A DNA stretch of 64,000 nt from Ruminiclostridium sp. (GTDB lineage: Bacteria > Bacillota > Clostridia > Oscillospirales > Ruminococcaceae). The stretch is taken from positions 25,697 through 89,696 of the forward strand of contig JAGBHT010000033.1 of NCBI GenBank assembly GCA_017935365.1. Reading direction: 5' to 3'. The translations under genes and the position numbers were made by a program. A model generated the notes under the pieces. It was not told the origin of the DNA, made no database searches, and saw only the letters and a program-made list of their open reading frames with translations. Position 1 is the first letter of the stretch. Every line of letters begins with the position of its first letter. Positions 59,858 through 63,814 of the stretch are shown piece after piece.

Positions 59858-60409
59858 TCATAGCAAATCGTTGATAGCTTTATTAACTTTGTCAGCTACA
59901 CGGCGGTGTTCTTCGTCGAATGTATGTTGATAAATTGTTTTAAGCATATACGGTGTGCTGTGACCAAGTCTTTCCATTGCATATTTATCTGAAATGCCTA
60001 ACTGCAACATAAGACTTGCATTAGCGTGTCTGAGGGAATGCATTGTAAAGCGTCGCATACCGTACTTTTCCTGCAACTTGAAAAATCTATCTAAAATCAT
60101 ATTAGGCGTAAGATTGTTTACGATATAATCGCCCTTATGTTCGATAGAATCAAGTCTTTTTATCAAATAGTCGGGTACAGCAAGCTCTCTCGTGCTTGTA
60201 AAACTTTTATTTGTGCTTTTTTCGATTAATTTGTTATTTTCGTTTGGCACAATTGCACCCTTAACGTAAATACGGCAATTACGATAATTGCTCCACTTCA
60301 GAGCTTGAATTTCTGATTGTCGCAAGCCGAGTAATAATGCAAACAGTACAGGTATTTCAATATCTTCGCCATAAACAGATGATATAATCGTGTGCATCTC
60401 ATCAGGTGT
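59858..60409 (-). pseudogene. Tyrosine integrase, catalytic domain only (5'-truncated)
   Basis: GLRQSE, HSLRH, LGH and TIYQH catalytic motifs are present. The frame extends only a few codons (TPDE) upstream of ATG 60397 before a TGA inside a palindrome; no N-terminal DNA-binding domains. Confidence 0.85.
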
Positions 60410-60566: not shown

Positions 60567-60941
60567 ATGAAAAACAACTACTATTGCCGAGCGTGGTACA
60601 AAGGCAAAAAACGTAAAAATCTTGAGCAGGCAGTGTCTTTATTAAAGCAATTTGACTGGTGTGACTGCAATGAATTATCACAGGACAAGCAGAATACTGC
60701 AAGAAAAGTATTGAATAACCTCTCTGCGATTATGGCTGTTACACCGTATGATAAGAAGAAAGTGGAAGTGATCGACGAACAGCGTTACATAGAAATTCTG
60801 ATGAGAGCGTTCAAATATCTTTTGAAAAACGATTATTGGAATTGCTGTCACGAATTATCGGATTTTTTCGAGCTTGAGCCTGTTTTTCAGCCACACATAG
60901 CATACGCAACACAAAAATTACTTGAAATGGCGGTAAACTAA
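60567..60941 (+). CDS. Hypothetical helical protein (124 aa), first gene of the cassette
   Basis: AGGAG RBS; stop overlaps the next ATG (TAATG). Confidence 0.75.
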   Translation: MKNNYYCRAWYKGKKRKNLEQAVSLLKQFDWCDCNELSQDKQNTARKVLNNLSAIMAVTPYDKKKVEVIDEQRYIEILMRAFKYLLKNDYWNCCHELSDFFELEPVFQPHIAYATQKLLEMAVN

Positions 60942-61639
60942 TGTTTATAAAGAAGAAAATCAAAAAACGTTTTATTGATAATAAGCATCAATTCAATTGT
61001 GTCTATGAATATGTCAGAAATACTGCTGATGAAGTTGACAAAAAGACAGCAATAAAGTTTTGCGATTATGTTATCGACATTCTGTGCAAAAACATAGAGA
61101 GTAATATGCAATTGAATTTTATAAATCATAATGTTGATGATTTTGTTCTCCCATTTCACGAAAATGAATACGAAAATGAAAATCCATATTCTTCATTCAT
61201 TTGGTTTCCTGTCAGCGTAACAGTAAAAGGGAAACCTATTAATATTGAAACTGATTCTATGATCGACATAGATTTAGCCAAATGTCACTTATTTTGTAAT
61301 ACTCGTAAAACTAACTCGTTGTTGAAGTTATTAAAATATATAAGTGATTCCGGATTTTATTTTGATAAAGACAGTCACCGTGCTATGTATATAGAATATC
61401 TGAATGTTTGTACTTTTGTGAGCGATGGCGTGCATTCTCTCTAAATAGCACATCATCTCAAGCAGGGAAAGATAACGGCAAAATTAGTTGATATAACTAC
61501 AATATTCCCGTATGTCGATACGGACGGCGATTATTGGTATGTAAATGGCGATACTTATAATGAGTACCTTGCTGAAGATTATAGGTTTTGCTTGATTTAT
61601 GAGATAGCAAAATTCAAGTACGGACTTGAACACGAATAA
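60941..61639 (+). pseudogene. DUF6710-like protein interrupted by an in-frame TAA at 61442-61444
   Basis: After ...VSDGVHSL* the same frame continues for 64 sense codons (IAHHLKQGKI...DTDGDYW...YEIAKFKY) to TAA 61637-61639. The family call is from memory of the G-[NV]-H-S / TDG..W motifs. Confidence 0.7.
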
Positions 61640-61697: not shown

Positions 61698-61877
61698 CAG
61701 CCGCAGAAAAAAGAAATCACGCTCCAAAAGCTGTAATCGTGTAACAATTGTCGGAAAGCAACAAAAAACAATACTATACTTTGTCAATGTTTTTCACACT
61801 TTCGGCTGGACTTTTCGCCATAAGTGTGGTACAATAAAATCAAAGGAAAAGACCTTAAATCGAAAGGAGATGCACAA

Positions 61878-62735
61878 ATGGCAAGAGATATTTTAAAGGC
61901 AAAGCTGGATATAATATTCAAGAAGTTGTTTACGGACGATGGAGATAACGAACTTCTGATAGGACTGCTCGATGCGATACTTGACTTACCGCAGGGCGAA
62001 AAAATAGCTGAAGTTCAGGTAACAAAGAATGAACTTATGCCCGACACTCCCGACGGCAAGGTAAGCAGACTTGATCTTAATGTAAAATTACAGAGCGAAA
62101 ATGACAAGGCAGAAAATAAGTACAGACTTATAAATGTAGAAATACAGCTTAATCAGAGGTCTGACTATGCGGACAGAGCATTATTCTACTGGTCAAGATT
62201 ATTCTCCGGCTCATTAAAATCGGGCGATGCGTACAGTGAACTGCCGGTAACGATTTCGCTTAACATTCTCGGATATTCGATGTTCCCGGACAGAGAAAAA
62301 TATCACTCGGTATATGTACCAAAAGAAGAAAAGTGTAACGATGTATTGACAGATAAGTTCTCATTACAGTTCTTTGAACTTGAAAAGCTCAATCACAGGA
62401 AAACCAATCTTCAGAGTAAAAAAGAACGTTGGTTAAGATTCCTGAACGCAGAAACGGAGGAGGAGCTCGATATGTTAGAAACAGCACAGGATAAAACGCT
62501 TGATAAGGCAATCACAAAGCTGAAATACTTCAGCAAAGATGAACAGCTCAGATTTGATGCAATATCAAGAGAGAAATTCATAAACGACCAGGCAAGCCTT
62601 GAGCGTTCTGCAAAGATTGCAGGAAGAGCTGAGGGAAGAGCCGAAGGCGAAAGAAGAAAAGAAGCTGAAATCCTCGCCAACCTCAAAGCAATGGGCTTAT
62701 CTGAAGAACAGATAAAGCAGGCTCTCGGCAAGTAA
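61878..62735 (+). CDS. Rpn-family recombination-promoting nuclease (PD-(D/E)XK, PDDEXK_2)
   Basis: DIIFKKLF, RLDLNV, INVEIQ, RALFYWSRLF, GRAEGRAEG tail; AAAGGAG RBS before ATG 61878. Confidence 0.88.
   Translation: MARDILKAKLDIIFKKLFTDDGDNELLIGLLDAILDLPQGEKIAEVQVTKNELMPDTPDGKVSRLDLNVKLQSENDKAENKYRLINVEIQLNQRSDYADRALFYWSRLFSGSLKSGDAYSELPVTISLNILGYSMFPDREKYHSVYVPKEEKCNDVLTDKFSLQFFELEKLNHRKTNLQSKKERWLRFLNAETEEELDMLETAQDKTLDKAITKLKYFSKDEQLRFDAISREKFINDQASLERSAKIAGRAEGRAEGERRKEAEILANLKAMGLSEEQIKQALGK
62472..62735 (+). CDS. Candidate nested in-frame small protein (RpnS-like antitoxin, 87 aa)
   Basis: AGGAGG at 62458-62463, 8 nt before an in-frame ATG at 62472. Confidence 0.5.
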   Translation: MLETAQDKTLDKAITKLKYFSKDEQLRFDAISREKFINDQASLERSAKIAGRAEGRAEGERRKEAEILANLKAMGLSEEQIKQALGK

Positions 62736-62770
62736 GAAACAGACCAAATCCCACAAAGGAGGACCCCAAA

Positions 62771-63814
62771 ATGAAACGTAAACGTACCCACACCATACTC
62801 GCAACAATAACCCTTATCAGCGTAATACTGACCAGTGCTTGCACGGCAGGCAATGCAAGCAGCACAACGTCCTCTGCACCCGAAACGGCAGTTACCACAA
62901 CTACCGCTCCGGCAGTAACGGGAACAGTAATGGATAGGATTGACGAGCCGAAAGCAGAAACAACTACTGCTCAGACCGCCGCTACCACAGCTACCACAGC
63001 AGTGACCACTACAAAGCCACAGGAAACAAAAAGTGCTGAAACTACCGCCGCTCAGACAACTACAGCGACTACAACGGCAAAGCCAAAGCCGGCAACGACA
63101 ACAACCACCGCTACAACAAAGCCTGCACCCGAATGGACCGAAAGCAAGGCAAGCGGTACTAAGTATGTCAACACCGACTGCTACAGCCGTAAAAAAGCTG
63201 TACTCGGCGCAGAAACCGTAAAGCTGTACAGCGTGAACGACAAGGTAACAGTGACAGCCAAGACCGATACAGGCTACTTCAAACTTTCTGATGGTAGCTT
63301 TATACACAGCGACTATCTGAGCGACAGCAAAGTAGCTCAGACTACAGCAACAACTACCGCAAAGAAAACGGAAACAACAAAGCCTGCGGCTACCACAAAG
63401 AAGCAGGAGAGCAAGCCTGCTGAAGATAACTGGAGATTTACAAAGCAGGACTGTGAAGATATATTAAAGGCTTGCGAAAAGTACGCAAAGGATAACGGTT
63501 ACGGTTACTGCAAGCCGTCCGACTTTGATACAGTCAAAGGCAAAGTATATCAGCATAGCAGTTGGGCACAAGTATATGCTAATTCTCCTACACCTAATTT
63601 CTTTTATGGATATACAAATACCAAAGAAGGAATGATTAATATACTATGTGGAGATATTCAGCTTAATTATGAAGAGGGTTTAGGTGCAACTTGTGTAGAC
63701 TATTGCCTTGCAAGCGAATATTGCCAATGGGCAAAAGAACACTGGGGTGTAGATATCAGCAATGATACTGCTTGTCAGGATATGACAGCTTATGTATTCT
63801 TCCCTTGCTACTGA
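62771..63814 (+). CDS. Lipoprotein with Thr/Ala-rich linkers, SH3-like domain and unknown C-terminal domain
   Basis: Lipobox TSAC; T/A/K repeats; KYVNTDCYSR...VTVTAKTDTGYFKL..GSFIHSDYL (SH3b-like). Confidence 0.75.
   Translation: MKRKRTHTILATITLISVILTSACTAGNASSTTSSAPETAVTTTTAPAVTGTVMDRIDEPKAETTTAQTAATTATTAVTTTKPQETKSAETTAAQTTTATTTAKPKPATTTTTATTKPAPEWTESKASGTKYVNTDCYSRKKAVLGAETVKLYSVNDKVTVTAKTDTGYFKLSDGSFIHSDYLSDSKVAQTTATTTAKKTETTKPAATTKKQESKPAEDNWRFTKQDCEDILKACEKYAKDNGYGYCKPSDFDTVKGKVYQHSSWAQVYANSPTPNFFYGYTNTKEGMINILCGDIQLNYEEGLGATCVDYCLASEYCQWAKEHWGVDISNDTACQDMTAYVFFPCY

What the first reader, a model, noticed from the sequence alone, without database searches (positions are those of the whole stretch)
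61878..62735. Rpn nuclease with a strong internal RBS and in-frame ATG: probable nested antitoxin
Seen: the codons for EEELDM create GGAGGAGGAG, with AGGAGG 8 nt upstream of an in-frame ATG (62472). This would give an 87-aa C-terminal protein. Known: E. coli Rpn proteins were shown to be toxic anti-phage nucleases neutralised by separately translated C-terminal RpnS proteins made from intragenic starts. Inference: the same arrangement operates in this Gram-positive PDDEXK_2 gene, which pipelines would annotate as a single 'transposase'.
Basis: partly seen in the sequence, partly recalled or inferred. Interest (0 to 1): 0.62.

Follow-up and report, generated by a model that had tools for sequence, protein, structure and literature searches.

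The report
Rpn nuclease gene with nested antitoxin start
This gut-Clostridia gene for a probable toxic DNA-cutting enzyme has a second ribosome start site inside it, kept by selection, that should make the enzyme's tail as a separate 87-residue protein; this "antidote inside the toxin gene" design was shown in E. coli in 2023, so it is a well-supported new example rather than a new kind of system.

Summary
The gene at 61878-62735 (285 aa; Pfam PDDEXK_2, NCBIfam Rpn family) carries AGGAGG at 62458-62463. An in-frame ATG follows 8 nt later at 62472 (M199) and would give an 87-aa product.

This is not chance. Only 3 of 9,982 internal in-frame ATGs in this genome have such a site. Across 40 homologues the two Glu codons that form the motif are GAG in 73 of 74 cases. 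Ten other conserved Glu columns are 19-52% GAG. In an unbiased class-wide sample the amino acids at the site change (EE, KE, WE, ME, QE) but the GGAGG core and an ATG or GTG start remain.

Relatives have stand-alone tail genes that start at the same Met. The tail carries the four-residue repeats (GRAE) typical of Rpn proteins, and their number varies among proteins at least 90% identical.

No expression or toxicity data could be obtained.

One difference stands out. The start lies about 50 residues before the repeats. In the tested E. coli and C. difficile genes it lies 8-20 residues before them, so the predicted antitoxin here is longer.

Verdict: new member of a known kind, moderate interest.

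The parts
61807..61835 (+). Promoter-like site for the whole gene (TGGACT, 17 nt, TACAAT, with TG before the -10 hexamer)
   Evidence: consensus scan only. It lies downstream of the alternative GTG at 61824, which supports ATG 61878 as the real start.
61863..61869 (+). Shine-Dalgarno sequence of the full-length gene (AAAGGAG, 8-nt spacer)
   Evidence: Predicted pairing is -9.0 kcal/mol.
61878..62735 (+). Full-length Rpn-family PD-(D/E)XK gene (candidate RpnL, 285 aa, stop included)
   Evidence: The homologue consensus starts MARD.... It is single copy in this genome.
61905..62393 (+). Nuclease core (residues 10-172) with invariant D66 (62073-62075), E88 (62139-62141) and Q90 (62145-62147), a D...ExQ motif
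   Evidence: AlphaFold2 model with alpha/beta core. These are invariant columns in 70 homologues. E. coli RpnA has the same pattern, SYSD...IEHQ.
62456..62465 (+). Internal Shine-Dalgarno sequence GGAGGAGGAG (core AGGAGG at 62458-62463), formed by the last base of the Thr193 codon (ACG) and the codons of E194, E195 and E196
   Evidence: It is the strongest SD-like site in the gene. GAG is fixed at E194 and E195 in homologues. It is also the strongest SD-like 10-mer of the whole gene in 13 of 26 unbiased class-wide homologues.
62472..62735 (+). Nested reading frame from M199 (candidate RpnS, 87 aa, same frame and same stop)
   Evidence: The column is Met or GTG-Val in 116 of 116 relatives. Stand-alone genes start at this Met. 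The model is one long helix plus a short terminal helix.
62622..62657 (+). Four-residue repeats GRAE-GRAE-GERR (residues 249-260), the hypervariable segment of the tail
   Evidence: Repeat number differs among proteins at least 90% identical (AGRAEGERR, AGRAEGRAEGERR, and longer forms) and between paralogues (L016/L018, L027/L029, L064/L066).

Best explanation
The gene is an Rpn-family PD-(D/E)XK nuclease that makes two proteins from one reading frame. Ribosomes starting at ATG 61878 make the 285-aa nuclease (RpnL-like, the toxin). Ribosomes binding the internal AGGAGG start at ATG 62472 and make the last 87 residues alone (RpnS-like). The short protein shares the long repeat-bearing helix with the nuclease. 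By analogy with E. coli RpnA/RpnAS, it pairs with that helix in the full-length protein and holds the nuclease inactive until something, probably phage infection, upsets the balance. The repeat number and the tail sequence would set which short protein matches which long one. Shown here: the internal SD and start are under purifying selection at the nucleotide level, the tail module exists as an independent gene in relatives, and the tail is hypervariable in four-residue steps. Inferred: actual internal initiation, binding, inhibition, toxicity and a defence role.
For: Family. Both this protein and E. coli RpnA match TIGR01784 end to end. D66, E88 and Q90 are invariant.

The site itself. AGGAGG, an 8-nt spacer and an in-frame ATG. 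It is one of only 3 such sites among 9,982 internal ATGs in the genome, and it is stronger than the main SD.

Selection at the nucleotide level. GAG is 40/40 and 33/34 at E194 and E195, against 0.19-0.52 at 10 other conserved Glu columns. These are the top 2 of 65 conserved columns for synonymous skew, and T193 (ACG) and D198 (GAT) are also skewed.

Unbiased samples. All 8 homologues of at least 39% identity found by Pfam HMM in 301 genomes of the order keep Met plus an SD. In 26 class-wide homologues of 26-39% identity, 17 have an SD-preceded ATG or GTG at columns 197-204. There the SD is encoded by different residue pairs (EE, KE, EG, KG, WE, ME, QE). The strongest SD-like 10-mer of the whole gene clusters at columns 189-197 in 13 of 26.

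Start codon. Where Met is replaced it is by Val (34 of 116), and the Val codon is GTG in 3 of 3 looked up.

Independent tail genes. Copies directly downstream start at the same Met with their own SD (L004, L006). Orphan tail genes keep the SD and Met but have no nuclease remnant (L024, L031, L034, L035, L036).

Repeats. Four-residue repeats vary in number within 90%-identity clusters.

Precedent. RpnS made from internal starts neutralises RpnL in E. coli, and a two-product pattern was seen for one C. difficile gene expressed in E. coli (PMC10400941).
Against: No internal promoter was found by the consensus scan, whereas the E. coli genes have one. The start lies 50 residues before the repeats, outside the 8-20 residues reported for characterised RpnS proteins. 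The validated C. difficile site aligns with N237, not M199. There is no match to DUF4351 or to PADLOC models. The models show one long helix rather than the compact three-helix bundle of RpnAS, and the Foldseek search found nothing significant. The neighbourhood is a degraded integrated element, not a recognisable defence island. Part of the homologue set was collected using the peptide ETEEELDM or shared 5-residue words. This biases amino-acid conservation in those sets, though not the synonymous-site counts.
Confidence: 0.66

Rival explanations
1. The internal start is real and makes the 87-aa protein, but this protein is not an antitoxin. It would be a needed partner or regulator of the nuclease, for example a subunit that sets oligomer state, target choice or activation, like Cas11d made from an internal start in cas10d.
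For: All the conservation evidence supports internal initiation only and says nothing about the sign of the effect. The predicted short protein carries about 38 more residues than the tested C. difficile one, including a conserved segment that Pfam counts as part of PDDEXK_2. It may therefore do more than dimerise. Zhong et al. cite Cas10d/Cas11d as a complementary case.
Against: Every Rpn pair tested so far is toxin plus inhibitor. Orphan tail genes without any nuclease, and extra downstream copies, fit spare or orphan antitoxins better than an obligate subunit. Repeat-number hypervariability matches the specificity code shown for RpnC-L/S.
Confidence: 0.17
2. No second protein is made. The conserved GGAGG is kept for another nucleotide-level reason, such as ribosome pausing at the domain boundary or mRNA structure, and Met199 is simply a conserved residue.
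For: SD-like sequences inside genes have been proposed to slow elongating ribosomes (general knowledge, and disputed). The motif sits at the boundary between the nuclease core and the helical tail. No expression data could be obtained.
Against: A pause signal would not need a start codon 8 nt downstream, yet ATG or GTG is there in all 116 close relatives and in 17 of 26 distant ones. Val replacing Met is GTG in 3 of 3 cases. Independent genes in relatives use exactly this SD and Met as their only possible start (for example L036, L031, L004 and L006 downstream copies).
Confidence: 0.1
3. The gene is what pipelines call it, a transposase of a mobile element, and the internal site is a by-product of an old fusion of two genes.
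For: Pfam names the family 'PD-(D/E)XK nuclease family transposase'. The gene sits in an integrated-element remnant next to a truncated integrase. Homologues lie beside serine recombinases. Distribution is patchy, 17 of 301 genomes of the order.
Against: Zhong et al. found no terminal repeats, target duplications or defined ends for rpn genes and argue they are not transposases. The gene is single copy here. A fossil ribosome-binding site would not stay fixed at synonymous sites across homologues of 26-46% identity.
Confidence: 0.04

Closest known systems
E. coli RpnA-E and plasmid RpnP2 RpnL/RpnS gene-within-gene toxin-antitoxin systems (Zhong et al. 2023, PMC10400941)
   Same: Both fall under the same NCBIfam model, TIGR01784, matched end to end. 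Both have the D...ExQ nuclease motif. Both have an in-frame internal SD and start that yields the C-terminal tail alone. Both carry hypervariable four-residue repeats in the shared helix. Relatives of both have extra stand-alone tail genes downstream (ypaA-like), and tail fusion or swapping is seen in both.
   Different: The Pfam family differs (PF12784 here, PF04754 in E. coli), and profile comparison with RpnA alone is not significant. The predicted short protein is 87 aa against 49 aa for RpnAS. The repeats begin 50 residues after the Met here, against 17 in RpnA. No internal promoter was found. There is no DUF4351 match. The tail lacks one of the three RpnAS helices by sequence comparison, and the models show one long helix.
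Clostridioides difficile 630 Rpn (WP_009902002.1), the one Gram-positive gene tested by Zhong et al. (expressed in E. coli)
   Same: It belongs to the same Pfam family, PDDEXK_2 (1.9e-29). It has the same overall layout and the same type of GIEK/GRAE repeats in strain variants. Its internal SD and ATG were shown to give a short product.
   Different: Its validated start (M302, SD AAAGAGGTG) aligns with N237 of the window protein, 12 residues before the repeats. At the column of M199 it has a non-start Val. The window gene has no start codon at the C. difficile position. The two genes therefore use different internal starts and predict short proteins of different length.
Other two-products-from-one-frame genes (Cas10d/Cas11d, ClpB, IF2, CheA short forms)
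   Same: An in-frame internal initiation site yields a C-terminal fragment that interacts with the full-length protein.
   Different: These are unrelated families. In those cases the short form is usually a partner or modulator rather than an inhibitor of a toxic enzyme.

Membership tests
Rpn family (NCBIfam TIGR01784 / COG5464) | Match to the family model above its curated cut-off over the full length | tested here: met
   136.2 bits against a cut-off of 52.1, residues 10-284 on profile positions 2-264. E. coli RpnA matches the same model at 160.9 bits.
Rpn family (NCBIfam TIGR01784 / COG5464) | Intact PD-(D/E)XK-type catalytic motif (D ... E-x-Q) | tested here: met
   D66, E88 and Q90 are invariant in 70 homologues. 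RpnA shows the same pattern, D63 and E82-H-Q84, by inspection. Catalysis itself was not tested.
E. coli-type Rpn (Pfam PF04754, Transposase_31/YhgA-like) | Match to PF04754 | tested here: not met
   Only PF12784 is matched, while RpnA matches PF04754. An hhalign comparison with RpnA alone is not significant.
RpnL/RpnS gene-within-gene toxin-antitoxin | In-frame internal ribosome-binding site and start codon in front of the C-terminal tail, conserved in relatives | tested here: met
RpnL/RpnS gene-within-gene toxin-antitoxin | The small protein is actually translated separately | not testable with these tools
RpnL/RpnS gene-within-gene toxin-antitoxin | Hypervariable four-residue repeats (one hydrophobic residue plus charged residues or Gly) in the shared tail, varying in number among close strains | tested here: met
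   GRAE units are present. One, two or more units occur among proteins at least 90% identical, and paralogues differ by one or two units.
RpnL/RpnS gene-within-gene toxin-antitoxin | Repeats begin 8-20 residues after the initiating Met of RpnS | tested here: not met
   Repeats start at residue 51 of the predicted 87-aa protein. The distance is about 43-50 residues across this subfamily. C. difficile fits the 8-20 rule.
RpnL/RpnS gene-within-gene toxin-antitoxin | Stand-alone tail genes (RpnSs) next to or apart from rpn genes | tested here: met
   Present in relatives: L002, L003, L004, L006, L012 and L013 downstream copies, and orphans L024 (three in tandem), L031 and L034-L036. There is none in this window.
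RpnL/RpnS gene-within-gene toxin-antitoxin | Internal promoter giving a short transcript | tested here: inconclusive
   No sigma-70-like site lies upstream of 62472 inside the gene. No synonymous constraint suggests one. No RNA data were available.
RpnL/RpnS gene-within-gene toxin-antitoxin | Full-length protein is toxic, the short protein binds it and neutralises it, and protection against phage follows | not testable with these tools
   These require experiments. There is no PADLOC match.
RpnS / DUF4351 (PF14261) | Match of the tail to PF14261, or an RpnAS-like three-helix bundle | tested here: not met
   The tail gives no Pfam match except a weak UBA hit. The models show one long helix plus a short helix (pLDDT 70-74). 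The Foldseek PDB search gave nothing with E <= 0.001, and the PDB sequence search found nothing.

The most novel reading that the evidence does not exclude
Most Clostridia PDDEXK_2-type Rpn genes, including this one, use a 'distal' internal start about 48 residues before the repeats instead of the 'proximal' start characterised in E. coli and C. difficile. This would define a second, longer class of RpnS. It would carry an extra conserved helical segment (LxxTxVPxIxKAVxxLxxMSxDExxRExAxxREK) that Pfam currently counts as part of the nuclease domain, and it may contact the nuclease core directly rather than only the dimerisation helix.
Probability: 0.5. Interest if true: 0.45.

Novelty: new member of a known kind. 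Interest (0 to 1): 0.33.

Why it matters
Pipelines annotate this gene as one 'Rpn family nuclease/putative transposase'. If the nested start works, gut Clostridia of the [Eubacterium] siraeum group and their relatives carry a self-contained toxin-antitoxin, probably antiphage, module that annotation misses. The comparative data also give clean nucleotide-level evidence that the gene-within-gene design is maintained across a Pfam family (PDDEXK_2) in which only one gene has been tested, and at a different internal position. Practically, the SD here can be removed by purely synonymous changes (GAG to GAA), which makes a cleaner test than was possible for rpnA or the C. difficile gene.

Tried and rejected
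1. PDB sequence search and Foldseek against the PDB with the full-length model gave no significant match, so no structural link to RpnAS could be made.

2. An hhalign comparison of the family alignment with the single RpnA sequence was not significant. The link to E. coli Rpn rests on the shared TIGR01784 model.

3. PADLOC gave no match.

5. The promoter scan found no internal promoter.

6. The first homologue sets were seeded partly by the motif ETEEELDM or by shared 5-residue words. I therefore treated their amino-acid conservation as biased and repeated the test on HMM- or BLAST-based whole-genome samples.

7. Length differences of 16 and 53 residues inside the 90% clusters turned out to be N-terminal gene-calling truncations, not repeat changes. 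Only the 4-, 8- and 12-residue differences lie in the repeat region.

8. A search for the C. difficile gene in viral contigs found nothing. It was recovered from metagenome contigs.

9. An alternative internal start nearer the repeats is rejected for this gene. No in-frame ATG/GTG/TTG lies between residues 200 and 271.

Full report
**Observation.** The + strand ORF from ATG 61878 to TAA 62735 encodes 285 aa. A promoter-like site (61807-61835) and the SD AAAGGAG (61863-69) precede it, and the homologue consensus also starts MARD. Inside the gene, codons 193-199 read ACG GAG GAG GAG CTC GAT ATG. This gives GGAGGAGGAG at 62456-62465, with AGGAGG 8 nt before the in-frame ATG at 62472 (M199). The product from that ATG would be 87 aa.

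**Family.** The protein matches Pfam PDDEXK_2 (PF12784, 4.6e-48, residues 9-241). It also matches NCBIfam TIGR01784 'Rpn family recombination-promoting nuclease/putative transposase' (1.8e-39, residues 10-284). E. coli RpnA, taken from NC_000913, matches the same NCBIfam model end to end, but it belongs to Pfam PF04754. D66, E88 and Q90 are invariant in 70 homologues, the same D...ExQ pattern as SYSD...IEHQ in RpnA. The AlphaFold2 model (pLDDT 74) shows an alpha/beta core at residues 10-172, short helices at 181-190 and 194-200, a 66-residue helix at 206-271 and a last helix at 276-284. M199 therefore sits at the junction between the nuclease core and the helical tail. The gene is single copy in its genome. 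It is patchily distributed, in 17 of 301 genomes of the order and 34 of 400 of the class.

**Is the site more than chance?**
- Within the genome, only 3 of 9,982 internal in-frame ATGs have AGGAGG at a 5-10 nt spacer (counted in ORFs of at least 200 codons, last 60% of each ORF), and this is one of them.
- Predicted pairing with the 16S 3' end is -11.8 kcal/mol. That is beyond the 1% tail for internal ATGs (-7.5) and stronger than the gene's own SD (-9.0).
- M199 is the only in-frame ATG/GTG/TTG in the gene with an SD.

**Synonymous-site test.**
- In 40 non-identical homologues with DNA, the Glu codons at positions 194 and 195 are GAG in 40/40 and 33/34 sequences.
- Ten other conserved Glu columns, including catalytic E88, are 19-52% GAG. 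E196, which only has to supply a leading G, is 30% GAG.
- Among 65 conserved columns, these two show the strongest synonymous skew. T193 (ACG) and D198 (GAT) are also in the top six.
- Neighbouring Leu, Ala and Asn codons vary freely, so synonymous sites are saturated.
- The same tree underlies all columns, so the ranking controls for relatedness. The binomial P values do not, and I do not rely on them.

**Ascertainment.** The first locus search used ETEEELDM as one of its peptide patterns, and the protein search is seeded by shared 5-residue words. Amino-acid conservation in those sets is therefore inflated. I repeated the analysis on unbiased samples.
- A Pfam-HMM search of 301 genomes of the order found that all 8 homologues of at least 39% identity keep the Met with GAG GAG or GAG GAT upstream. 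Among 11 more distant members, 2 have a Met there.
- A protein search of 400 genomes of the class gave 26 full-length homologues of 26-39% identity. In 17 of them the best SD-preceded in-frame ATG or GTG of the C-terminal half lies at columns 197-204.
- In those 17 the encoded residues differ (SEEV, TKEV, SKEE, SKGV, TWEE, NMEA, KEEM, AQEV), yet the DNA keeps (A/G)GGAGG or GGAG. It is the nucleotide motif that is conserved, not the peptide.
- The strongest SD-like 10-mer of the whole gene maps to columns 189-197 in 13 of 26, and exactly to column 193 in 10.
- Among 116 closer relatives the start column is Met in 82 and Val in 34. The Val codon is GTG in 3 of 3 genes whose DNA I fetched. These three are close relatives of each other, so they count as roughly one event.

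**Independent tail genes.**
- In L004 and L006, a small gene directly downstream of a full-length rpn gene begins at the homologous Met, with its own SD and a different repeat pattern.
- In L002 and L003, the closest relatives (90% and 83% identity), a downstream copy starts 14 residues later through an ATGA stop-start overlap.
- L031, L034, L035, L036 and L024 (three in tandem) are tail-only genes. They retain WLxxINAETEEELDM with the SD and Met, and no nuclease remnant is detectable upstream.
- This parallels the E. coli rpnE-ypaA and rpnC-rpnCSs arrangement.
- DNA comparison shows the window gene lacks a roughly 197-bp duplicated unit present in L002. Its tail is the one carried by the downstream small gene in L002. 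This is the kind of fusion or tail exchange that Zhong et al. describe.

**Repeats.** Residues 249-260 read GRAE GRAE GERR. Homologues carry from one to more than fifteen G-x-x-x units. Within clusters at 90% identity, the variants are AGRAEGERR, AGRAEGRAEGERR, AGRAEGRAERDNE and longer forms. They are combined with three alternative terminal helices. This is the Rpn hallmark reported in PMC10400941.

**Comparison with what is known.** Zhong et al. [quoted passage not shown] They showed that RpnS binds and inhibits toxic RpnL, that repeat number sets specificity, and that RpnP2 protects against phage. They also saw a two-product pattern for one C. difficile gene expressed in E. coli and proposed broad conservation. 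The principle is therefore published, including for a Gram-positive PDDEXK_2 gene.

Using their primer sequences I recovered that C. difficile gene from metagenome contigs. It is also PDDEXK_2. Its validated start (M302, SD AAAGAGGTG) aligns with N237 of the window protein, 12 residues before the repeats. At the M199 column it has a non-start Val. The window gene has no start codon at the C. difficile position. The subfamily studied here therefore uses a different, more upstream internal start. It predicts a longer short protein whose first 48 or so residues are conserved and are counted by Pfam as part of the nuclease domain. This breaks the '8-20 residues' rule of the paper and is the only real departure I found.

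**What is missing.**
- No expression evidence could be obtained.
- No internal promoter is apparent. I infer that the short protein is made from the full-length mRNA, with the stronger internal SD favouring an excess of the short form.
- There is no DUF4351 or PADLOC match.
- Structure searches were uninformative. The tail models as one long helix, as expected for a dimerising helix modelled alone.
- The neighbourhood is a degraded integrated element with a truncated integrase and a DUF6710 gene, not a clear defence island.

**Verdict.** The antitoxin role rests on analogy. I put the chance that the internal start is used at about 0.85, and the chance that its product inhibits the nuclease at about 0.65-0.7. 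It is a new member of a known kind with a shifted internal start. Notes from this scan report many similar cases in other genomes. These are unchecked AI notes and not evidence, but they suggest such finds are common. Interest is moderate to low.

Noticed in passing
window 62523-62735 compared with L002:1263-1657 and L003: Compared with its closest relatives, the window gene lacks a roughly 197-bp duplicated unit. Its tail (…ILANLKAMGLSEEQIKQALGK) is the one that in L002 and L003 belongs to a separate small gene downstream, translationally coupled through an ATGA overlap. This suggests a tail-swap or fusion by recombination between the two copies.
   Followed up: partly
proteins P0001 and P0122-P0149 (clusters at 90% identity): Nearly identical nuclease parts are combined with three alternative terminal helices (…ILANLKAMGLSEEQIKQALGK, …ILAKMRKSGLSEEQIKAILNS, …IIAKMKKKGLSDDEINAIMDL) and with different repeat numbers. 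This is mosaic tail exchange within a species-level group. One source names the group [Eubacterium] siraeum.
   Followed up: partly
L024:135-1166: Three tail-only genes lie in tandem. The first keeps the SD and Met of the rpn internal start. The other two have a different N-terminal part (MDEKRTEYIDEEGNKVV…) joined to the repeat helix. No nuclease gene is detectable in the 2.4-kb locus.
   Followed up: no
genome contigs C1:194077-195096 (+) and C41:185-2536 (+): These are the only two other long ORFs in this genome with AGGAGG 5-10 nt before an internal in-frame ATG (…LGIGGTG-M… and …PQGGGKS-M…). They are possible further two-product genes or mis-joined frames.
   Followed up: no
L064, L065, L066, L067: Homologues of about 44% identity, with a GTG internal start, lie directly beside large serine recombinase genes (Resolvase/Recombinase/Zn_ribbon_recom). 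They therefore travel on integrative elements.
   Followed up: no
L098, L100, L103 (C. difficile-type rpn genes): Variants of the experimentally tested C. difficile gene differ sharply after the internal start. There is a 326-aa form with a short tail, the 363-aa form without G-x-x-x repeats, and a 369-aa form with EGIEKGIEKGIAKG repeats.
   Followed up: no
window 62736-62771: Only 35 nt and no terminator-like hairpin separate the rpn stop from the next gene, a Thr-rich lipoprotein-like ORF at 62771-63814 with its own AAAGGAGGA. The two genes may be co-transcribed.
   Followed up: no
window 59858-60394 (-) and 60941-61441 (+): There is a truncated tyrosine-integrase C-terminal fragment (Phage_integrase, 4e-13) and a DUF6710 gene (2.5e-08) just upstream. 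The rpn gene lies in a decayed integrated element.
   Followed up: partly
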